Shown here one piece after another: positions 1 to 12,300 of a stretch of 38,587 nt of DNA. Both the position numbers and the translations under genes were made by a program. Position 1 is the stretch's first letter; each line of letters begins with the position of its first letter. The stretch comes from Basidioascus undulatus (Eukaryota). The notes below the pieces were generated by a model. It did no database searches. It was not told the DNA's origin and was given only the letters and a program-made list of their open reading frames with translations. The stretch spans positions 1-38,587 of the forward strand of contig JTLS01000041.1 in NCBI GenBank assembly GCA_000826855.1, read 5' to 3'.

Positions 1-1973
1 GGGAGGTGGCGGGGCAGGAGGAGGAATATCGCCGGTGTCGATGTGAACGATGTTGCCGCCGAGCTCGGGGTCGCCGACCTCATCTTCGCGCAGACGCCGC
101 ACAGCGACCGTCACGCCCGCTTGTACGCGCGTGCCGGCGAGCTCGCGCTCAAACATCTCGACGACCTGCGCGCCGTCGCCCTCCTCCACCGACTCTCTGT
201 ACCCAACGCGCATGCGGCCCATCCGCGCGCGCACGTTAAACTCCTCCAGCAACCGCCGGAACGAAATCTCGAGGTGGAGCTCCCCCAGGCCGCTCAGGAG
301 CGTCTGGCCCTCGCCCCCGGCGGCCGCAGCGTCGTTCGGCTCGGTGAGGACGAGGGACGGGTCGGTACGGAGCAAGGAGCGGAGCGCGAGCGCGACGGGC
401 TTCTCGTCCGCGAGGGACTCGGGCTCAATCGCGACGCTGAAGACGGGCGGGGGGATCGTAATGTTCTTGAGCTTGAGCGGCGCGGGCGGGTTTCGGCGCG
501 GGTCGGACGCCGAGAGGAGCGTGTCGCCCGTGCGCGTGTCTTTGAGCCCGAGCAGGACGCCAATGTGCCCTGCGGGGAGCGCGGGCACCTCGACAGACCG
601 CTCGCCCGACATGAGCATCAGCTTCGAGATGCGCTCGCGCACGCCGGTGGACGTGTTGTGCAGCGTCGTAGTCCGACTCAGCGTCCCTGTAAGAGAAAGG
701 ATTGCACGTCAACCGGTGCCAAGGGGCTGTACTATTTTGACATCACAGCCTTACCGGAATACACCCGCACCCAGGTCATCCAGCCTTTCCGCGCGTCCCA
801 AACGACTTTGAACGCAAGCGCGACGCAGCCCTCGTCCGTCATCGGAACGATCTCTCCGTTCTGCCCGACAGCAGGTGCGATCTCTGTCGGGTTGGGAAGG
901 TAGTCGACGACTGCGTCGAGCAGGGGCGCGACGCCGACGCCCTTGAGCGCCGAGCCGCACAGAACGGGGAGCACGCGGCCCTCGTGCGTCAGTCGTCTGA
1001 GCGACGCGCGAAGCGTGTCGGCTGAAAGATCGATGTGCGGGTTCTCGCCCTCGAGAGCGAAGAATTCCTCGACGAGGACTTCGTCCAGGGACGAGAGGGT
1101 CTCTACGAGGGCCGTGCGCGCCTTGTGCGCCTCGGGGACCCACTCGGGGGGCATGGCGGAGACTTCAGGCGGTGCGGCGGAGGGGAACGGGAAGGTGAGG
1201 TAGGTGAGGTCGACGAGGTCGATCAGGCCAGAGATACCGTCCCCTGAGGGGTGCGGGACGGGGAGCTGCAGCGCTAGGGGAGCGGGGTGCAGCTTCTGCA
1301 GTGTTGACTGCAGAGAACGTGCGAAGGACGCTCCCGGCCGATCGAGTTTGTTGACGAAGAGGAGAAGCGGGGAGAGGTTGTACCTGTGCATGATTGAGGA
1401 TCGCAGTCGTAAGTAATCGTCGCTTTGGAACGAGGCGCGAGGAAACGCCGCGCACCGCTTGGCCTGTCTCCAAATGCCCTCCGTCTGCGCCTCGACGCCC
1501 TCCACCCCATCCAGGACCACCACCCCTCCATCTAGGACCCTCACCGCCCTCTCAACCTCCACCGCAAAATCCACATGGCCCGGCGTATCGATCAGATTGA
1601 TGCGCGTATCCTTCCACACGAGCGGCACGCTCGCGCTCTGGATCGTGATCCCGCGCTCTCGCTCGGCGGGGAGGAAGTCCGTTTGCGTCGTCCCCTCGTC
1701 AACCGATCCGGGCCCGCGCGGGAGCAGACCGGAGAGATGGAGGAGCGACTCGGTGAGCGTCGTTTTGCCCCCGTCGATGTGCGCCATGATGCCGATGTTG
1801 CGCAGGAGGGTGGGAGGAGGGAAGGCGCTCGGGTCGGGGACGGAGAAGCGTGCGGGAGAGGTGGAAAGTCGACGATAATTAGCGGAAGCATGGCGGGCGA
1901 CGACGAGCGGGGAGAGCCGAGAATGTCGTGTGGACTGCCGCAAAAGTGGGCAGCTCCGGAGGCGAGTCGCCAT
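1..1973 (-). CDS. MEF2: Mitochondrial ribosome-releasing factor 2 (EF-G2/RRF2mt), spliced; 3' end lies outside the window
   Basis: Arg/Ser-rich mitochondrial presequence; translational GTPase motifs RNIGIMAHIDGGKTT, ERERGITIQSA, INLIDTPGHVDF, NKLD, GSAL. After an intron (~752-687) the frame continues with EF-G domains II/III (PPPVFSVAIEPES, LLRTDPSL, GQTLLSGLGELHLEI). Confidence 0.9.
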
Positions 1974-2642
1974 GGCTCAGCGTCGCGAGGCCTGCATGAA
2001 AGAAATTCAGCAAGTTCTGAAATCGATCGAGTTGAAATGACCACCCACAGAACCGCCGGCGGTCTCTGCAGTTCTACGAAACGACAGCGAAGACGAGAGC
2101 TCGCGAAAAAGCTTGGTCGAAATCGGCGCAAGTGCTGCCGCGGCAAACTGGCAAGTGGTGCCCAGCGAAACGAATCCCAGGTCAGCGACCGAATTCAATT
2201 GGTAAGGTTAGTACATGAGAGTGCGAACTTTGAAAGAAGTGAAATGTGTAATGAAAGTAGGTGTGAGAGGGAAGTGAGAAGGCAGGCACGGAAGGACATG
2301 AGGGCCGGCATTGGCTCGCTTGGAACAGCAAACAGCAACGCGGTTCGAAACCGTTACACTCACCTTTGACGTTCTCAACTTCGTCTCACAAAGAAACGTT
2401 TCCAAAAGCAGAACAAGGCAGGCAAAGGCAAACCACGATAGTCCTTCCATTCGATGTATTGCATTTCATAGCATCACTACTGATGTGTGCGGGATGGTGG
2501 AATAGTACAAGATGCTCGACTGATGAGGGAGATACTGCAGGCTACATAGACACAGGATTTAAGCTGGAAATCAAAAATTAAACGCGAGAAACGGGCTGCC
2601 CTCCATAAAGATGGGAGCTTGCGATGATCCCCTTCCTTCCGC

Positions 2643-4841
2643 TCACTTAGACGACGAAGTGGCGTTGTTGAAGATGAGAAGGTTAGGGCTCTCGACGCCG
2701 ACGTCGGAGAGGACGCCGCGGTTGGAGAGCTCGATGAGCGTCTTCTTGAGGATGGCGGGGGAGATGGGGCCGGGCGCGGGCGCGGAGAGCGCCTGCTTGG
2801 GCGAAGGGAAGTAGGACGAGAGCCAGCCGGGCAGGACGGCATCGAGGCCGCGGAGCGTGGACTGGACGGCGAAGATCGGGAAGGACTCGACGAGCTTGCG
2901 CGAGGTTGGGATCGGCTCGAGCGTCGTCAGGTCGAGCTTGGAGCCGTGCAGCGAGAGAAGGTAGGCGAGGACACCGGCTGGCGAGGCGAAAAGTAGTTGT
3001 CAGGACATGGATGAGGGGATGCAGGAAGTAGAAGTAACGTACCGGTGTGGGGCGAGGCCATCGAAGTGCCAGAGATGGTGTTGGTGCTGTAGTTGCCTGG
3101 GGACAGGGAGGCATGTTAGCCCCAGATACCACAACGCTACCGGAATCAAAGACGCACCAGTGTTCCAGGTGGAGAGGATGTTGAGACCGGGGGCGAAGAC
3201 ATCAACGCACTTGCCCCAGTTGCTGATTCGGGGAATAAAACGACAGTCAGCGGCTGACTCGCTATGCGGGCTGGGCAAACGGCAACAGTTACACACCTGA
3301 AGTAAGCCCGCTCGTCCCACACGGTGGAAGCGCCGACGGTGACCGCCTTGTCGGCAGCAGCAGGAGAGTAGTTGCACGCGTCCTTGTTGTCGTTGCCAGC
3401 CGCAACAGCCTGCACACGATCACAGACCACGCCAGACAATCGGCGACACGCTCTTACAACGATGCTCGGGGGAAAAGCAAAGACGCACGAAGTGCAGGCC
3501 AGACTCGACGGCGCGGTTGACGGCGCGGTCGAGCGCGGGGCTCTTGCCACCACCGAGGGACATGTTCGCGACGGAGCCCTTGTGCGCCGTCTTACCGTTG
3601 GTGGCGACCTCGGCCTCGGCGGCCTTGGCCTTCTTGAGCGCCTGCTCCGCGGCCCAGACGACGCCAGAGACAACGTCCGACATGGTGCCCGAGCCGTTCG
3701 TGCCAAGGACCTGTGCACGAAGACGTGAGCATGCGGAGACACAAGCACAATGTGGACGATGTCGCGAACCTTCACAGCGTAGAGCTCAGCCTTCTTCGCG
3801 ACACCGTACTTGCGGGAACCGATAGTGCCCTGGAAGGCAACGGAGGCATCAGCACCACGCGGGCGCAGGCGGGGAAGAAGAGCGGAGCTCACCGCAACGT
3901 GCGTGCCGTGGCCGTTGCCGTCAATGTCCTGGTCGTTCTGGGGAATGGTCTTACCCCAGTGGGCGCGGCCCTCAAACTCGACGTGGTTGACGTTGATGCC
4001 GGTGTCGATGATGTACGCGTCGACGCCCTCACCGCCTTCGGTGTTGTAGACGTACTTCTGGAACGTGCTCAAGGAGAGGGGGTCCCTGTGGGAGATGCGG
4101 GCAAGACCCTGTCGTCGACAAGCAGCGATTTAATAATCAGTGCCTGATCAGGAAGAGTAAGGCACGCGCGGAAGCAGCTTACCCAAGGCGCGTTCTTCTG
4201 CGTCGTCACATCGGCGGCCTCGATGTGCTCGTCGTCCTCGACGCCGCGCGGGACGTCCTGCGTCCACACGAGGCTGTCGCGCTCGACGTACTCGACCTCG
4301 GGCTGGGCGCGGATGGCGTCGAGCGTGTGCTCGTCGATGCCGTGCACGCTGTAGCCGTTGAAGCCGCGCTCGCCCGCGTGCGCGACGAGGTTATAGATGT
4401 GCCCGAAGCGCGCCGGGATCGAGGAGCGCTTGCGCGAGGACGACTCGGAAACGGAGCGGCGAGCGAAGGAGTGGTGCGACGAGGCTGGAGATGGGGGAAA
4501 TGGTCAGTGGGTTGGTCTGGGACTGGTGGGGTGCGCGTAGGCGTGGAGCTAAGGGCGGACTATGCGTTCCAGCATTGTAATATTTCGTCACAGCACGATA
4601 TCTCAACAGAGGATGTCGCTGATACACCGCGACTGAAACTCGAGGTGCACGACGATCGAGGACGCCACTCACTCTCAGCCAAGTCGACACCGTCCCTCAA
4701 GACGACGATGTACGAGTCCTTGACGCGCTCGTCGGCGGCTTCAGAGTGGACGTCGCCATGCACGGGTGCGAGGACCTGGGTACGGAGAGGCGACGCGGCG
4801 GCGAGGCCGACAAGCGCGAGGGCAGGGAGGAGATGCTTCAT
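2643..4841 (-). CDS. PRB1: Vacuolar subtilisin-like serine protease (S8, cerevisin/proteinase B type) with signal peptide and I9 propeptide, multi-exon
   Basis: Signal peptide MKHLLPALALVGLAAASP; I9 propeptide (SYIVVL, VEYVERDS); catalytic triad motifs IIDTG, NGHGTHVA and TISGTSMASPH; AAGNDNKDACNYSPA; ends LLIFNNATSSSK-stop. Confidence 0.92.
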
Positions 4842-6014
4842 GATGAGCTCGGCGGGAGATCGGTCGTCGTCGTCGTCGTCGCTCGGTCGTCACTTGGCTC
4901 CGTTGCACAACTACGAGGGAGAAGGGAGGGGGGAATAAAAAGGGAAAGGGAGACTAGGAGGGGGTGGGTGTATGCGCGGGGAGATGGATGCTGTGGGTGT
5001 GGGTAATGGTAAGAAGGAGAGAGAGGGGGTCGGGTTGAGTTGAGTTGAGGAGAGGGGTCGGACGACTCACGAGCGATGACGCGGCGCGCTCGTGCTTATC
5101 AGCCAAGCGGAGTCACGCGGAAGCCTATTAATGTTCGCTACAGTCTCTACTAGCAATTCCTATACTACGCTGCTCGCCGCACCCCATCCGGCTTGAAGCA
5201 CATCTCTGTCGCATCCGGAGCGGTCGCTGCTGCTTCAAGCCACTTCTGTGCATCGAAATCGACGGTAAAGAGCTACATAATGCCACCCAACGATGTACCT
5301 TGCTGAGATAGCCTTCGATGATCAAAGCAAGAGCATCAAACACCTTCGGCAAGCTTCGGACCGGCGCACCGGACTCCAGCCCCTTATCTGGGAGCTGATC
5401 GTCGTGTGTCGCTCGTTCGCGCTGGTCGTTATCAAGGAGCTGTACAGTTGACCAAACACACTTCTTGTATCCTGGCGCATCTTGGGTCACGCAACTGACT
5501 GAAATCGAGGCCTCAACCAAGCCGTTCCCGGCTCGTGCTTTGAAACGAACCCGCCCAGCATCTTGCACGAGTGTCATGCGTCGTTTCAATGCAGATCTAT
5601 TAGGTTTTGGATGGAGCAATGATGGACCATGGACCACTAGGTCCTAGGTAATAACATAAACAAATGTCTCTTTGTGGACATACCGCTGTCTGAGCTGTAA
5701 GCAAGAACTGACCGTAGCTTCAGCCTGGTCGCTCCGCTCAGTCTTCCTTGGTCCTGAAAGGTTAGCGGCACTTACCCATACTACATACATCCGGGGAATA
5801 CACCAGACAATCGGAAATCTTGCATTTTGTATGTGCATGAGCGCCGCCGGGGCGTCGAAAGGACCACCTCGCAAGCCTACACGTCGCTGGCGCGGTTCCG
5901 GAAGACTGAAACCATAGGCCTCCAATAAGCTTCACTGAGCTTGAAGTTAGGTAGTATACTCTTCAATATTCTGGCAGCATGAGAGGCTTCAACTGTCCCA
6001 GTGCCATCTCTGCT

Positions 6015-6486
6015 GGAGCGAGATGTCCGCGCCATTGCAACCGAGCGTCGTCAGATGCAGCCTCCGATTGCATTCAACAACTTTACGAAGCTGAGAGCTG
6101 TCTGTCGGGTAGCGACAGTGGGCACCATCATGTCAGCTGGTGCCTAGAAAGCAAGCCAGATAAGCAGGGTGCTTACTGCTACAGAACTTGCGCGGAATGC
6201 GCTCCGAGACGGGGCTCTTGTACTGGTCCGAGTAGGGCTGCACTGTGGAACCCGGGAAGTGGATGAGAAGCATGATTCGAAGCGACCCAGCTGCCAGGAA
6301 ACTGGACAGACGTGCAGGTGGTCACGTTCGTGCCGCCGAAGTTGATAGATTTCACACTGGGAAGGAAAAGAGTTACTCAGATTGGTTTGCGAGATGAAAG
6401 GAGGTGGTACAAGCACATACACCGTGAGCGGCAACTTGGGTCGCGTCGAGGATCGCGAGAGCAGCGGCGGCGGTGAGGCGGAGCAT
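6015..6486 (-). pseudogene. AA9 LPMO, 5' half (signal peptide, His1 and N-terminal exons), inverted relative to the rest of the gene
   Basis: ATG at 6486 gives MLRLTAAAALAILDATQVAA|HG, i.e. His as first mature residue. GT-AG introns separate exons VKSINFGGTNVTT (from 6356), QPYSDQYKSPVSERIPRKF (6242-6177) and a decayed NGP-type exon (6101-6087). Exon 1 and exon 2 phases do not match. Confidence 0.8.
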
Positions 6487-6634
6487 GGCGGCGTGTGAAA
6501 TGAAGGTGAAGTCGAATGAATGGAAAGTGAGTAGAATTGGTTGCCCGAACCAGTCAAGTACTTGAAGGAGATGAAGTGGAAGCTGAAGACGAGGGGAATG
6601 AAGACTGAGGACGACTGCCAACATGGCAGTCGCC

Positions 6635-6640
6635 TTTATA
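6635..6640 (-). promoter_or_regulatory. Putative TATA box of the LPMO gene
   Basis: TATAAA on the minus strand about 150 nt upstream of the ATG at 6486, followed by a pyrimidine-rich leader. Confidence 0.45.
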
Positions 6641-6936
6641 CGCCTCCTGCCAACACCGTAGCTTGTTGAATATGAGCCCAGGGGAGCCTCAGTTTATGAG
6701 GCAAGGACCCAAATGACCTGAAATGACGTGGTGTACCTTGCCGAAGATGTGCGGGGCTGGACCTGACAATGCACGAAAATGGCTACATGTCGTCCAGGAG
6801 AAAGGCAGGCTGCGAGCGTGCCGCTGTTGCGCGGCTGTATTATGGGAACACTCGCTCTGGAGCTGTTTTCTTTCGCCACTCTGCGGAACAGTAGTAAAAT
6901 AGAAGCTTCATATAAAGAAGGGACGGCAGGATCGTC

Positions 6937-8462
6937 GCCGACATCACACTCCGCTGCATCGAATACAAGGACGTGGCGGACTCAACCAGCCCGCCCCCAT
7001 CGCCGCCAACGTGACCGCCGGAGATGAGGCTACGTTCTACGTGCGTGACCACTCTTGAGTGACTTTACCTCAGCTCTGCTGAACTTCGATTGTCTACGTC
7101 TGCAGTGCACGTATGTTGCCATTTTGAGATTCTGCAGTACGTTGTGCTAACGATGGACTATTCAGCGACTGGCCATCCTCGCACAAGGTGAATATCGAGC
7201 TTTTCACCTCCACAACATCAGGTAGCCTGTGACTCGCAACCATCTGGCTACAGGGTCCTGTCATCACCTACATGGCCAAGTGTGACGACGACGACTTCAC
7301 CAGCTTTGCAGTAAACGAGTCGGGTAAGCAGGCCACTGAATGGAGATATAAATTTACAGCACTCCACGCCTGAACGGGCTCCTCACCAAAGAGTGGCGTG
7401 CAGGCTGGCTACCTCTCGAATACAACGGCTGGGCGACGGACTTGCTGATCGCCAATGGGAACAGTTCGTATTCTATTTTCTGGGTTATTTCGACAGTGAG
7501 CTTACGCAGTTCTTCACAGGCTGGACGATCAAGCTGCCGTCCGACCTGACTGACGGCCAGTACATCATCCGGTGCGCTATCCCTTCCCACTCGACGCACT
7601 TCAGTGCTTCCCTTACACCATTAGTTTACAGGCACGAAATCATTGCCCTTCACCAGGCCTCTTCCAAGGGCGGTGCGGAGTTCTGTGAGTAATTGGATCA
7701 GGGAAGACCTTGGCTCGCTTCTTTTCCCAGAAACTCACTCACCCGCTTCATTCGCAACACCCCCATGCCAACAGGTTCAGATTAGCGGCGGTAGCGGCAG
7801 TGCCCCTCCTTCGGAAATTGGGTGTCTGTGACCTTGTCGCGTTTGATTATAGTATCTGCAGCCTCGCTGACCCACCTGCAAAAGGTGGCATTCCCTGGTG
7901 CATACGGCGAAGAAGACGCCGGCATTCTGTTCAACCTGTCAGCAGCGTTGATCCCACCTGGACTTGAAGAAACTCACTGATGCGTTCCATTTACCCTCAG
8001 CTATTCTGGTGGTGACATGTGCGGCTACAAGATTCGTAAGTTCTCAAACGATTGGACTTCGCGGTCCGCAATGCTTCTGACCCACCTTTTACAGCCGGTC
8101 CCTCCGTCTACGAGTCCCTCGAGGACAGCGCGAGCCAGTAAAAGTCCGGAGACTCCGGTTCCAACAGCACCGTGCCGGCGACGTCCGGCTCGGCTTCATC
8201 TGGGGCTCGTCTTCTACGTCTGACGACGTCCGCCGCTTCCGCAACCGCCTCCTCGCATGCCCGCACCGGCGCAGCATCGTCCGCCGCCACGACCGCCACC
8301 CTGGGGGGCACCTCGTTAGGCTCTTCTTCTGGCACTTCGGAAGGCGACGCATCCTCCACCGCCTCTTCGACCGCGGCCTCCCCCGTTGCGACCTCCGCGG
8401 ACAGGTCCTCGCGGTGCAAGCGTTCTGGCACGATTGGCCGCCGTCTCCGTTCCAACGCTTGA
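6937..8462 (+). pseudogene. AA9 LPMO, 3' half with Ser/Thr/Ala-rich C-terminal extension; disrupted
   Basis: Exons encode GGLNQPAPIAANVTAGDEATFY, a 5-nt micro-exon (7106-7110), DWPSSHK, GPVITYMAKC, WATDLLIANGN, WTIKLPSDLTDGQYIIRHEIIALHQASSKGGAEF, CQQVQISGGSG, VAFPGAY and YKIPGPSVY. Lesions: frameshift ~7410-7420, no AG acceptor ~7755, in-frame TAA at 8139-8141. Confidence 0.88.
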
Positions 8463-9363
8463 GCTAGAAGTTGTTGTTACTTGGGGCTTAGCCCATTTCC
8501 ACTTCTCTCTATTCTCGAACCCCTGAAGCGGCCCGTCGCCACCCACGTTTTCTTTCCTGTAATTCAGGACCACCTCGGGTAGCAGCATTCATACCTGTCT
8601 GTGGACTTGTCTCCGTGCCTTTGAAAGTAGCTTCAAAATTCGTCAAGTCCTACAGGGATGCTTTAAGCGGCTTCCAAAATTTTGACTTCCAGTCCCACAT
8701 TGACTGTCGGCGAGGGCGAGCTGTCGCTGCAGGGGGCAGGCCCTCTGCTGTGTACCATGGGAAAGCGCAAAGGCGAGCATCGAGTAGTGGATGGGTCGGT
8801 CCCATTTCGTTTTGAAAAGAATCACACTTGTTGAGCACTATTGATAGGACTTCCATGATGCGGAGCGCCTTCCGCCGTACCTTCCTCTGCCCGTCAGCTT
8901 CCCCTCAACACGCGGAAGGGAGTTTAGAGCGGCCAGCGATTCGGCAGGAGGTTGAGTGGAATCTTCAGCCTGAGCCCATGTTAAAATAGCTGGAATATTC
9001 TCAATGATTTCGCTCGCGAACGCGAGAGTCACTTCGCCGTTCGGCTGTAGCAAGAGTCCCGGCAGTCTATCCTTCAAGGCAGCCAAACTCTGCCGGATTG
9101 CGCTCGGCCTTATGGCATCCAGGTCACAATACTGAGAAGATCCCTCTGAACATACAGGATGAGTTTCGAGAAACGGCATTATGGAGTACGACCACGGCGG
9201 CGAGCAATGCGAATTGGGTACAGGTGCTACATGGGAGACAAGCGGTGCGGAAAGCGACCTGGATTACGGTCTCTAAGCAATAGTCTTCTGGATTACGAGA
9301 GATGTAAGCACTGGCTCAAAGTTGTTGAGGCTGAGAAAATTGTCGTACTATAAAAGCCAAGCA

Positions 9364-12300
9364 CTAAACCAACGATGCCGCCCCAGCGCTGCGGGACGCA
9401 GTAGCCGGCGGAGGGGCCTTCGGCTTCAGCGAGACGGTATACGTGAGCTTGTTTGTGAAGAGCTGCAGGAACTGGACGTGAAGTAGCGGAATAATGCCGA
9501 ACACGATGCCAGCTGGGAAGAACAAATAGCTGCGAAGGCAACTTGTCAGCTTGACCTACAACGGGTGAATGCACATAGGCCGACGCACTCTATCAAGGCG
9601 GTCGGGAACGGTCGGTAAGAGCGCTCAGAGGGCTGCTGGCCGAGGTGGGATGGCTCCTGGGCCGTCGACCCCTCGAGACGGAGCGTCCAACGCGTGAGGG
9701 ATGTCGCGCGATGGTATGCATCATAGGCTGTGCGAGCGACAGAAACACTGAGCAAGGTGAAGTGAAGTGAGAACAGAAGACCAACGCACAGATGCACATG
9801 ACCAAAGTCAGATAAAAGCTCGCCGGCCCCATGTAACGGGCAGTGTGGATCGCCCAGGTAGCCAGCAGGCCAGCCACAACCTCAGGGCCCCGGAGGAATG
9901 GAAGAAGAGGCTTCGCAGGCACGATCTCGCCCGACGCCAGCGTCGTTGCGGGAGGGAATAGAGTGAGCATGGTAAGGAGAATGAACATGTTCCTGCGGCC
10001 AGTAGTCAAGCGCAGGGCCGTCAGTCCAGTATTCCTAGGTCAAGTGTGTGGGCTTGTATTGGAACTTACCCCATAAGCATGTGGGCCTCGTACAGCCTCG
10101 CGAAGACCGAAAGGAACGGGGTGATGAGGATCTTGGCCTCCTGCGGAGCGTCCGGGTGGTTTGCTACCTCGTGAGGCCCGGCCGCAGACCCGCCCAATCC
10201 GAGCCAGGAGCTCTCGCGGCTCATTGTGGTCGGCTTCAGCTCCGGCGACCCGGACGGGCTGCTGTACACGGATGTGGCGGGGGAGTCGAGGGGCGGCGAG
10301 ACCCTGCCGGACGGCGAACCGAGCTCGAATTCGGAGAGCGAGGAGCTCTCAGAGAATGGCGTGGACAACACCGAGGGCGTAGACAGTGTCGAAGGCGCAG
10401 GGCTGAGATCCGATAGCTGGAAGGTACCGGGATCGATGACGGGAACCGAGATGTGGCGTTGGTGCAAGTGCGAGCGGGTGGACGGGGGCGGGTGCTGCAT
10501 GGCGGATGCCGAAAGCGGCTGGGAGGACAAGGAAGGGCGCGAGAGCAGGTGGTCTTCTTCGGGAAGCTTAATTGCGCCTGGGCCGAACTCGCCCAGAAGC
10601 AGGCGACGGTAAGAGTACCCGGTGTCGACTATGAGGTACATCGGGGAATGGAAACAAGACTCAGTCCCGAAGGTTCTGACGTTGCCGAGCGACAAGAGAA
10701 GGTCACGCACGGCAGCCCCACATATGGCGAACGGCCTGAACGTAACGCGCTTTGTGGTCGTTGAGGAACCCGCGAATACCTCCACGCTCGCCTCCGACGA
10801 CGTTGAGTTGAGATGCTGAAGAGTTTAGGGGGTGAGCACACAAGCTACAAGACTGGAGGCGCTGGTGACCGACTTACCAGGCGAATAGATCGTCTCACAG
10901 ATGAGATGACCCCGCGTACCGAAAAGGCATCTGAAGGCGGAGAATATCTCGAGTAAGTAACGGACCTCAAAGTTGATGTAGGCGTTACACAATGACCTGG
11001 AGTACGTACTTCAAAGACATGTGCATCTGCGAAAAGTTGAGGAACGTCAGCTCAGAGTTCACCCTTGAGTAGAGAAGATCATGGAACTCACGTCCTCGCC
11101 GATAGCCTCGGGACCCGCGTCCCAAAATCCGACCTGCATCGCAAGCATCATCGAGACGCTATATGCCGACGTCGGGATTTTCGTCGAAGAGCCCGGGAAG
11201 ATCGAGGACAGACCAGCCCTGCACAAGTAAGAGGAACGGATTCAGCCGGCTCTGTAACAGTATCCGCGAACATGTACAGTACATACTTACAGCGACCACA
11301 GAATATCAGTCACCCGTACCGAAACGGGCACGGTGTGCGCATTGCGGTCAAAGCAGATGGGCGCGGCAAACATCATCCTCGTGCTGGGTGTCGAAGATAT
11401 AAACCACCTTTGTGTCACTCGTTGGAACTCGAGGTTGCACAGGGAAACGTACCGCTGCTCCGGAGTTGCGAGGGCGAACTTGCATGCAACAGAGGCGAAA
11501 TAGTCGGCGGCAAAGCAGGCTGTAGATACCATCACGTTAGGGACGGGCCAAGCAGAATAGAGAGGAGTAATTTTTGGAAGACACGCACTGTCGCTATCCA
11601 TGACGGTAATAACCATTCGCCCAAGACGGCTAGGGTCTTCCCTGGCGTGTCTCATGGCCGAAGTGCGACTGGCCCAAGCGAGGTTGCTGCTTTTGCCAGC
11701 CGACTCGCCCTGAAGGTCTGGAATGCGAATTGTGTAAATTGTCAGTGTTATTGAAGACTTTACATAGGTGTCGCTGGTGAAGAGCAAAACAGAAAAACTC
11801 AACTGGGCGGGTGGAGGGTATAGCTGATGTCGAGAAAGAGCGGAGCATAGCTGGACATCAGCGTGCGAGCTTTTGCAACGGCCGTCTGCTCGCGCTCCTC
11901 CATTGCCAAGACAATGCGGTACGAGGTGCGGGCCAGCGAATGCGAAGCGAGCACGTCCAGGGTGTCGGACAGTGTAGAAAGGTCTTCGGCGTAGCTATTT
12001 CCATGCGTCGTCAGTGTCCATTCGCAACGAGACGCTCCCAACTGCAGCAAGGCTATTCTCACTTCGGGATGAGAATCACATGCTCGACCTGTTCGATCAG
12101 AGAACACAAAAGTATTAGGGGATCATCATTCCAGCAAAATACGAAAAGGGGGCGGCTGTGGACTGACAGATTCGAAATCAAGCACGTCTTCGACGCCTTC
12201 AACGCCCTCCTGAAGCCGCCTTTTCTCCCTCCCCTTCACCCACTCTCTCCGCCAATCGGTAGATGCGTGAGAAAGGACTCCGTCCCATGCTTTTAGAGCT

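What the first reader, a model, noticed from the sequence alone, without database searches (positions are those of the whole stretch)
6015..8462. AA9 LPMO gene split by an internal ~0.94 kb inversion: promoter and His1 exons on the minus strand, remaining catalytic exons on the plus strand
Seen: the signal peptide, His1 and the next exons read leftwards from 6486, while the exons that follow them in an AA9 (GGLNQPAP...VTAGDE, WPSSHKGP, RHEIIALH, GAEF) read rightwards from ~6937. The two halves are complementary and together make one AA9 domain. I found no LPMO 3' exons left of 6015 and no 5' exons on the plus strand before 6937. Established: AA9 enzymes need His1 plus the second His to form the copper histidine brace. 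Inference: flipping 6015-6952 would rebuild a colinear gene with its TATA box. The simplest reading is a gene-killing inversion. An invertible on/off switch or an assembly error are alternatives. The other lesions in the gene argue against a currently working switch.
Basis: partly seen in the sequence, partly recalled or inferred. Interest (0 to 1): 0.8.

Follow-up and report, generated by a model that had tools for sequence, protein, structure and literature searches.

The report
Fungal LPMO pseudogene split by inversion
A fungal gene for a copper-dependent polysaccharide-oxidising enzyme (AA9 LPMO) has had its promoter and first exons flipped onto the opposite strand by a roughly 0.75 kb inversion and carries further frame-breaking damage, so it is an ordinary dead gene and not a switch.

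Summary
On the minus strand, 6486-6166 encodes a signal peptide, His1-Gly and the next ~40 AA9 residues. On the plus strand, 6916-8141 encodes the rest of the AA9 domain. In reference coordinates the halves abut. A sub-family HMM places the minus pieces at positions 4-24 and 36-61 and the plus pieces at 76-226. In 19 of 19 full-length references with an N-terminal placement, the minus part ends before the plus part begins.

Only one N-terminal copy lies in the 38.6 kb window. Misassembly is unlikely: Logan contigs from two DNA runs of two studies each span 4000-10000 in one piece with no differences, and no inverted repeats flank the segment.

The gene has other damage:
- a frameshift at 6973-6974;
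- no in-frame splice path from 7683 to 7760, so the axial Tyr codon is absent;
- an out-of-frame exon 1/2 junction.

My best estimate of the flipped segment is ~6166-6915 (about 750 bp), not 6015-6952. One break lies inside a coding exon and the other upstream of the promoter.

Verdict: a decaying AA9 pseudogene broken by a simple small inversion. Interest is low. A reversible switch is very unlikely, with no flanking inverted repeats, no recombinase and one orientation only. No relative's locus could be examined.

The parts
6633..6640 (-). TATAAAGG, a TATA-like box about 150 nt upstream of the minus-strand ATG
   Evidence: Read directly from the sequence. Function is inferred only.
6421..6486 (-). 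Exon 1: Met, 20-residue hydrophobic leader, then His1-Gly
   Evidence: AAHG aligns 4 of 4 with P0026, and the leader plus HG aligns with P0018 and P0072. Sub-family HMM positions 4-24.
6357..6420 (-). Canonical GT..AG intron 1 (64 nt). Splicing it leaves exon 2 one base out of frame.
   Evidence: The only in-frame path uses a 47-nt intron ending at 6376 and adds 7 non-homologous residues after His1.
6316..6356 (-). Exon 2, VKSINFGGTNVTT (first beta-strand after His1)
   Evidence: Aligned to VKDMNVDGKTY of P0072 and VTDLNVAGT of P0033, and to L045 q20-31.
6243..6315 (-). Intron 2 (73 nt). Only a GC..AG path joins exon 2 to exon 3 in frame.
   Evidence: 3 solutions, all with GC donors.
6166..6242 (-). 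Exon 3, 5' part: QPYSDQYKSPVSERIPRKF, possibly continuing to CSSKHP. Minus-strand homology ends here.
   Evidence: tblastn against L045, 10 of 17. 10-11 of 17-19 with P0017, P0018 and P0033, and RKF shared with P0072. HMM positions 36-61.
6166..6915 (.). Best estimate of the inverted segment (about 750 bp): promoter, exons 1-2 and the first part of exon 3
   Evidence: Inferred from where homology ends on each strand and from the frame-B stop at 6913-6915. Each limit is uncertain by some tens of bases. No relative's locus was available to fix them.
6916..7040 (+). Remainder of exon 3: ...ADITLRCIEYKD, then GGLNQPAPIAANVTAGDEATFY, with a frame change at 6973-6974
   Evidence: a 2-nt gap lies between the two homologous blocks and no in-frame path exists.
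7106..7110 (+). 5-nt micro-exon between introns 7041-7105 and 7111-7165. It gives the linker 'CT' where L045 has 'WT'.
   Evidence: the only path whose linker has the homologous length; L045 sequence.
7166..7187 (+). Exon with DWPSSHK, which holds the second His of the histidine brace (7182-7184)
7254..7323 (+). Exon GPVITYMAKCDDDDFTSFAVNES(G)
   Evidence: Pfam AA9 positions 77-97. HMM E=5.9e-06. Clean GT-AG junctions on both sides.
7404..7463 (+). Exon (G)WLPLEYNGWATDLLIANGN(S)
7520..7571 (+). Exon WTIKLPSDLTDGQYII(R)
7632..7684 (+). Exon (R)HEIIALHQASSKGGAEF. The junction to the next block is broken.
   Evidence: Pfam positions 143-162; 0 in-frame GT/GC-AG paths from 7683 to 7760. The only nearby acceptor (7728-7729) creates TAA (read).
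7760..7821 (+). Block PPCQQVQISGGSGSAPPSE(IG)
   Evidence: The junction to the next block is doubtful: the only path is a 38-nt intron with a 10-residue linker.
7885..7937 (+). Exon VAFPGAYGEEDAGILFN(L)
   Evidence: Pfam positions 176-199. 11 of 14 with L045.
8001..8035 (+). Exon YSGGDMCGYKI
   Evidence: clean junctions on both sides.
8095..8141 (+). Last exon (P)GPSVYESLEDSASQ, then TAA at 8139-8141
8142..8462 (+). Open S/T-rich stretch in the same frame after the TAA, ending ...RCKR... It may be a former C-terminal tail, or not coding.
   Evidence: There are weak low-complexity matches to the tails of L028, L033 and L080. Three other frames are also open here, so the openness is not significant.

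Best explanation
This is one former AA9 lytic polysaccharide monooxygenase gene that was cut twice and re-joined with the middle piece flipped. One break lay upstream of its promoter. The other lay inside the exon that encodes the stretch between the motifs '...ERIPRKF' and 'ADIT..C'.

The flipped piece is about 6166-6915. It carries the promoter, the signal peptide, His1 and about 40 further residues, and it now reads leftwards. The rest of the catalytic domain still reads rightwards from about 6916 and has no start codon, no signal peptide and no His1.

Neither part can give an LPMO. The histidine brace needs the N-terminal His1 and the second His in one chain (established knowledge of AA9 enzymes). 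The locus has since decayed, or had already decayed: it carries a frameshift, at least one broken splice junction and the loss of the axial Tyr codon.

Shown here: the AA9 homology of both halves, their complementarity, the single N-terminal copy, the arrangement in two read sets, and the extra lesions. Inferred: that the halves were once colinear at this locus, the exact breakpoints, and the order of events.
For: 1. The plus half is AA9: Pfam PF03443, 34.7 bits against a cut-off of 27.8.

2. The minus half is the AA9 N-terminus.
- L045 residues 1-64 score 67.2 at 6462-6190(-), the window-wide maximum. 0 of 400 shuffles reach it.
- 33 of 150 library AA9 proteins score >=50 there, against 1 of 150 shuffled.
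- 20 of those 33 place the match in their first 70 residues and before their plus-half match. 4 more are N-terminal fragments or N-extended proteins with the same order.

3. The halves are complementary.
- HMM of 62 references: minus pieces at 4-24 and 36-61, plus pieces at 76-226.
- In 19 of 19 full-length references the halves never overlap. The gap of 14-31 reference residues is the poorly conserved, frameshifted stretch 6183-6166(-) plus 6916-6974(+), which holds ADITLRC.

4. Both halves are about equally far from the nearest references: 43-50% identity for the minus half and 47-52% for the plus half. L045 ranks 1st of 26 for the minus half and 2nd of 26 for the plus half.

5. No other N-terminal AA9 signal lies in 4500-9500 or in the whole window.

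6. The arrangement is real DNA. One 31,574-base Logan contig of run X1 (2014) and one 61,030-base contig of X2 (2025, another study) each cover 4000-10000 with 0 differences and no strand-changing joints. No flanking inverted repeat exists that could mislead an assembler.

7. Extra lesions: 0 in-frame paths for 6972->6975 and for 7683->7760. The canonical intron 1 leaves exon 2 out of frame.
Against: - No orthologous locus from a relative could be examined. Ancestral colinearity is therefore inferred, not seen.
- The best references differ between the halves: P0017 ranks 1 on the minus half and 14 on the plus half, while P0022 ranks 13 and 1. The rank correlation is weak (Spearman 0.24, p=0.013, n=106).
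- Pfam alone does not detect the minus-strand pieces. The HMM hits there are weak when taken singly (E 0.12-0.73).
- Only 1 of 26 metagenome references picked out the N-terminus above noise.
- One or both DNA runs may be the data from which the window was assembled, so they are not fully independent.
- 6 of 10 plus-strand junctions are still clean, so decay is modest. A late inversion in an already dead gene cannot be told apart from an inversion that killed it.
Confidence: 0.78

Rival explanations
1. Two unrelated truncated AA9 fragments lie head to head. One is the 5' remnant of one paralogue on the minus strand. The other is a 5'-truncated second paralogue on the plus strand.
For: The best-matching references differ between the halves: P0017 for the minus half and P0022 for the plus half. 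Other AA9 paralogues exist in the genome, since other contigs of X1 and X2 match 22-32 nt at 7260-7292.
Against: The halves meet at the same point of the AA9 domain with no overlap and at most a few residues unaccounted for. Two independent truncations would have to end at the same codon by chance. Both halves carry the traits of one sub-family, namely PY.D.Y..P...RI and GP.ITYMAK. Their distances to the references are similar. The references are only 43-52% identical, so a difference in best match says little.
Confidence: 0.08
2. Assembly artefact: the real genome is colinear and the 0.75 kb piece was flipped by the assembler.
For: None positive. Only contigs could be laid, not raw reads, and X1 or X2 may be the source data of the window.
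Against: Two DNA runs of two studies (2014 and 2025) were assembled by Logan independently of the deposited assembly. Each gives one contig (31.6 kb and 61 kb) through both junctions with 0 differences. No inverted repeats flank the piece (the longest pair is 30 nt at 70%, located elsewhere). A k-mer assembler therefore has no reason to flip it.
Confidence: 0.04
3. A reversible on/off switch: the promoter and 5' exons flip between orientations and so control LPMO production.
For: The geometry (promoter plus start of the gene inverted as one cassette) is what such a switch would look like. Contigs drop rare variants, so a minor colinear form is not excluded.
Against: - No flanking inverted repeats.
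- No recombinase or transposase domain among the 128 ORFs of >=90 codons scanned, out of 176 listed.
- Only one orientation in the contigs of both runs, with no strand-changing joints.
- The colinear form would still carry a frameshift and a broken junction.
Confidence: 0.02
4. The inversion made something new. The old LPMO promoter and signal peptide now drive a small secreted protein that starts with His. One splice path gives an open 87-codon frame, 6486-6423 plus 6375-6179.
For: One search finds an in-frame path (47-nt intron, 6422-6376) into the 65-codon ORF 6376-6179.
Against: The stronger canonical acceptor at 6357 gives another frame. The ORF has no Pfam family. No selection test was possible.
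Confidence: 0.04

Closest known systems
AA9 (formerly GH61) lytic polysaccharide monooxygenases, Pfam PF03443; nearest here are unnamed metagenome and library proteins L045, P0017, P0018, P0022, P0026, P0033 and P0072
   Same: Signal peptide followed by His1-Gly. Motifs PY.D.Y..P...RI, DI..C, V.AG, WP.SH.GP, TYMAKC, W..D.LI.N.N, RHEIIALH, C.Q..V.GG, FPGAY and IPGP, in the same order.
   Different: The gene is not colinear: the first ~60 codons lie on the other strand. The frame is broken at 6973-6974. The Tyr codon after GAEF is absent. Identity to the nearest references is only 43-52%.
Solved AA9 structures (PDB 7ntl LPMO9F, 2vtc Cel61B, 2yet GH61 isozyme A)
   Same: Weak sequence matches of piece 7315-7692 to the strand before and the RHEIIALH helix region (E 0.16-0.81).
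   Different: Distant relatives only. No structure was predicted here, because no intact chain exists.
Gene disruption by small inversions, for example the inversions that break the human factor VIII gene (recalled, no call)
   Same: Two breaks and a flipped middle piece that separates the promoter and 5' exons from the rest of the gene.
   Different: The factor VIII inversions arise between long inverted repeats and span hundreds of kb. Here the piece is about 0.75 kb and has no flanking repeats, which fits end-joining of two breaks.
Bacterial invertible promoter switches (fimS, hin; recalled, no call)
   Same: A promoter-bearing segment in inverted orientation next to its gene.
   Different: Those have inverted-repeat borders and a dedicated recombinase and occur in both orientations. 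None of these three features was found here.

Membership tests
AA9 LPMO (Pfam PF03443) | Match to the family profile above the curated cut-off | tested here: met
   Piece 7315-7692 scores 34.7 bits against a cut-off of 27.8. Further pieces match at profile positions 77-97 and 176-199.
AA9 LPMO (Pfam PF03443) | N-terminal His1 directly after a signal peptide | tested here: met
   The leader ...VAA followed by HG at 6432-6421(-) aligns with the AAHG or VAAHG of P0018, P0026, P0033 and P0072. The cleavage site was not predicted with a dedicated tool. The residue lies on the opposite strand from the rest of the gene.
AA9 LPMO (Pfam PF03443) | Second His of the histidine brace (WP.SH motif) | tested here: met
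   DWPSSHK at 7167-7187, with His at 7182-7184.
AA9 LPMO (Pfam PF03443) | Axial Tyr in the G-A-[QE]-F-Y motif | tested here: not met
   GAEF ends at 7683. There is no in-frame GT/GC-AG path to PPCQQ at 7760 (0 solutions). The nearest acceptor yields TAA.
AA9 LPMO (Pfam PF03443) | One continuous, spliceable reading frame that could give a working enzyme | tested here: not met
   The halves lie on opposite strands. There is a frameshift at 6973-6974 and a broken junction 7683->7760. Exon 1/2 is out of frame. It is a relic of the family, not a working member.
Site-specific invertible switch | Inverted repeats at both borders | tested here: not met
   58 inverted pairs in 5000-8000, and none pairs ~6166 with ~6915. 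The longest is 30 nt at 70%, at 7311/7600.
Site-specific invertible switch | Both orientations present in one population | tested here: inconclusive
   Only the present orientation appears in the contigs of X1 and X2. Contigs cannot show rare forms.
Site-specific invertible switch | Recombinase encoded nearby | tested here: not met
   Pfam scan of 128 ORFs of the window (of 176 listed with >=90 codons). It found only housekeeping domains and no recombinase, integrase or transposase.
Unitary pseudogene | Recognisable homology plus lesions that preclude the product | tested here: met

The most novel reading that the evidence does not exclude
The promoter-plus-5'-exon cassette is a eukaryotic invertible element. 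A minority of nuclei would carry the colinear form, making this a phase-variation-like control of a secreted enzyme in a fungus.
Probability: 0.02. Interest if true: 0.8.

Novelty: new member of a known kind. Interest (0 to 1): 0.2.

Why it matters
It matters little beyond annotation.

- Automatic gene callers will either miss this locus or call a truncated AA9. Counts of LPMO genes, often used to infer a fungus's way of life, would be off by one.
- The locus is a clean example of a repeat-free sub-kilobase inversion with a breakpoint inside an exon. Such events are under-reported, because short-read variant callers and protein-based annotation both overlook them.
- Most introns are still intact, so the loss looks recent. 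The locus could serve as a marker of recent loss if relatives are compared.

Tried and rejected
- No whole genome is held for this window, so paralogues and synteny could not be searched.
- The search for homologous proteins with piece 7315-7692 found nothing at E<=0.001 or E<=10 (only 5 word-sharing candidates).
- The search for related loci in metagenome contigs found 211 pattern matches but no tblastn-confirmed relative. A degenerate RHEIIALH DNA pattern then gave 122 loci. From these I took 26 intron-less AA9 ORFs.
- The HMM of those 26 was too diverse to see exons 2-3.
- My first spliced-alignment script had a gap-penalty bug, so I discard its output. The corrected version was used from then on.
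- PDB chains could not be fetched as proteins.
- Earlier findings of the scan returned nothing in three look-ups.
- Literature: two full-text searches, 'AA9 / pseudogene / inversion' (15 papers) and 'intragenic inversion / fungal / pseudogene'. I saw listings and abstract starts only. None describes an AA9 gene split by an inversion, and I read none further.
- RNA: no listed holder is on record as RNA. Run X3 behaves like a transcriptome, with spliced contigs. It covers 4000-4912 and 9141-9993 but has no contig over 5005-9024. This blank is not evidence on expression.
Aligning the two halves separately answered the question.
- Similarity of frame f0 of 6367-6251(-) to the AA9 C-terminal motifs scored 50-55 with 5 references. 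The sub-family HMM gave only E=3.6 and Pfam gave nothing. I treat it as chance.
- The TAA at 8139-8141 is not counted as a lesion. L045 also ends a few residues after its PGP motif, so the stop may be the natural one.
Full report
**Setting.** The window is fungal nuclear DNA. ORFs around the finding carry an EF-G-like GTPase (1-1976, minus strand), a subtilase with its I9 propeptide (3149-4503, minus strand), a protein kinase, ribosomal protein L29e, a cyclin, TFIIIC Tau95 and RanBP1 domains. No transposase or recombinase appears among the 128 ORFs scanned, out of 176 ORFs of >=90 codons. No whole genome is held for the window.

**The plus-strand half.** Stop-free pieces 7233-7373, 7315-7692 and 7795-7980 match Pfam AA9 (PF03443) at profile positions 77-97, 143-162 and 176-199. 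The middle piece is above the curated cut-off, 34.7 against 27.8 bits. It also gives weak matches to solved AA9 chains (7ntl, 2vtc, 2yet).

**Getting references.** The large protein index returned nothing for this intron-ridden query. The same was true of a protein-guided scan of metagenome contigs. A degenerate DNA pattern for RHEIIALH returned 122 metagenome loci. From these I took 26 intron-less, full-length AA9 ORFs, each with Met, a leader and His1 150-230 residues before the motif. One of them, L045, was then used for an exhaustive HMMER search. That search gave 3381 hits at E<=0.001, and the best 150 were fetched.

**The minus-strand half.**
- Read leftwards from 6486, the sequence gives Met, a 20-residue hydrophobic leader ending VAA, then His-Gly. 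A GTATGT donor follows.
- After a canonical 64-nt intron comes VKSINFGGTNVTT (6355-6316).
- After a further 73 nt comes QPYSDQYKSPVSERIPRKF (6240-6184).
- tblastn with L045 finds the last block at 10 of 17 identities, and finds the leader plus HG at 6468-6421.
- I wrote a protein-to-DNA aligner that allows introns and frame changes. The output had a bug and is discarded; onwards use the corrected version.
- With this aligner the first 64 residues of L045 score 67.2 at 6462-6190(-), the best place in the whole 38.6 kb on either strand. The other 25 references reach only 34-47, anywhere in the window. 0 of 400 shuffled L045 N-termini reach 67.2 (mean 42.8, sd 3.9, max 59).
- With the 150 library proteins, 33 score >=50 on 6180-6490(-), against 1 of 150 shuffled versions.
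- 20 of the 33 place the match within their first 70 residues and before their plus-strand match. Four more (P0007, P0011, P0054, P0143) are N-extended proteins or N-terminal fragments with the same order.
- The other nine of the 33 are discussed under 'Things that do not fit'.
- Typical matches are PYEDPYKNPAPERVSRK (P0017), FDPYSDPYRSPVPDRVMRK (P0018) and ...PIPARITRKF (P0072).

**Complementarity.**
- An HMM built from 62 full-length references places 6376-6693(-) at positions 4-24 and 6136-6321(-) at 36-61. The plus-strand pieces follow in order at 76-94, 103-122, 139-154, 152-187, 189-205 and 202-226.
- Positions 62-75 have the consensus VEDVTSADIACNKG. They correspond to ...RDGRIV ADITLRC IEYKD at 6919-6972(+), which is too short and too diverged for the HMM. 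Direct alignment to P0017, P0022 and P0033 does find it.
- In all 19 full-length references with an N-terminal placement, the minus part ends at reference residue <=59 and the plus part begins at >=68. They never overlap.
- Counting residues against P0017, P0026 and P0072, at most a handful of codons are unaccounted for at the seam (inference).
- No second N-terminal signal exists elsewhere in 4500-9500 or in the window.

**Where the breaks are.**
- Minus-strand homology runs to RKF (6184). By the HMM alignment it may run to CSSKHP (6166).
- On the plus strand, the frame that holds ADITLRC is closed by TAA at 6913-6915 and open from 6916.
- If an intron once lay between the two parts, the phases do not match. 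The donor candidates at 6182 and 6176 leave 1 nt. All three acceptor candidates (6917, 6920, 6929) need 2 nt from the exon before (and my reading).
- A break inside a continuous exon at about 6165|6166 and 6915|6916 fits without loss and in frame. This is an inference: one in three break pairs would be in frame by chance.
- The flipped piece is therefore about 6166-6915 (750 bp), not 6015-6952.
- No inverted repeat joins the two borders. That fits two breaks repaired by end-joining (inference).

**Is it real DNA?**
- Two DNA runs hold all sampled words of 5000-9500.
- Laid on 4000-10000, one Logan contig of X1 (31,574 bases, 2014) and one of X2 (61,030 bases, 2025, another study) each cover the whole stretch. 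Both show 0 differences and no strand-changing joint.
- These contigs were assembled from reads independently of the record that the window comes from, and their lengths differ from the window's. One or both runs may still be its source data.
- Together with the lack of flanking inverted repeats, misassembly is unlikely.

**Other damage.** For each pair of neighbouring homology blocks I listed every GT/GC..AG path (up to two introns of 38-160 nt) that keeps the frame without a stop.
- On the plus strand, 6 of 10 junctions have a clean GT-AG path with a linker of the homologous length. A seventh, from 7040 to 7167, does so by way of the 5-nt micro-exon 7106-7110.
- Two junctions have no path: 6972->6975 (two bases where three or none are needed, a frameshift) and 7683->7760. 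At the latter, the only nearby acceptor gives TAA and the codon of the axial Tyr is absent.
- One junction, 7816->7885, has only an implausible 38-nt intron.
- On the minus strand, the canonical intron 1 leaves exon 2 out of frame, and exon 2 joins exon 3 only through a GC donor.
- The locus would therefore not encode an LPMO even if it were colinear.

**Things that do not fit, or fit loosely.**
- The best reference differs between the halves (P0017 for the minus half, P0022 for the plus half). The rank correlation over 106 references is weak (0.24, p=0.013). At 43-52% identity this test cannot separate one gene from two paralogues.
- Nine of the 33 high-scoring references align the minus region elsewhere. 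Four are S/T-rich low-complexity matches in another frame.
- The other five align frame f0 of 6367-6251 (FLPSVKSINFGG...VQFPGSW...HPLPG) to the C-terminal AA9 motifs FYPSC.Q..V.GG / FPGAY / YPIPG. The sub-family HMM gives this only E=3.6 and Pfam gives nothing. I regard it as chance, but I note it.

**Verdict.** This is a relic AA9 gene whose promoter and first ~60 codons were flipped by a small, repeat-free inversion, and which carries further frame-breaking lesions. It is an ordinary pseudogene and of low general interest. A reversible switch is not supported.

Noticed in passing
window 7041-7165: A 5-nt micro-exon (7106-7110) lies between two canonical introns (7041-7105 and 7111-7165). It is the only splice path that gives a linker of the homologous length (2 residues).
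   Followed up: partly
window 6251-6367 (minus strand, frame of ORF 6179-6376): One open frame reads FLPSVKSINFGG...VQFPGSW...HPLPG. It resembles the AA9 C-terminal motifs FYPSC.Q..V.GG, FPGAY and YPIPG in 5 of 150 references (scores 50-55). The HMM E-value is only 3.6. It is probably chance.
   Followed up: partly
window 6458-6541 (plus strand): Antisense to the signal-peptide exon, the translation ...AACEMKVKSNEWKVSRIG weakly resembles the AA9 'AGD..V.F.W..WP.SH.G' region. tblastn gives E=0.18 with L032 and L049, and the HMMs give E 3.4-6.3. This is at noise level.
   Followed up: partly
window 7260-7292: Other contigs of runs X1 and X2 (one of 3846 bases, and another place on the 61 kb contig) match 22-32 nt here, in the GPVITYMAKC-coding stretch. 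This suggests AA9 paralogues elsewhere in the genome.
   Followed up: no
window 4000-4912 and 9141-9993: Run X3 is listed as DNA but behaves like a transcriptome. Its contigs skip 4108-4181, 4485-4672, 9288-9348, 9530-9588 and 9728-9789 with CT..AC ends, which are GT..AG introns of minus-strand genes. This confirms the introns of the subtilase gene (word depth about 650) and of the gene right of the AA9 relic.
   Followed up: no
window 8142-8462: An S/T-rich stretch is open in four of six frames and ends ...RCKR.... It resembles the low-complexity C-terminal tails of L028, L033 and L080, which end C-K-[LR]-K. If it was once coding, the TAA at 8139-8141 is a premature stop.
   Followed up: partly
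window 6959-6978 and 7416-7435: A 20-nt direct repeat at 80% identity covers ...IEYKDVA and ...LEYNGWA in two different exons of the same gene. It is probably chance.
   Followed up: no
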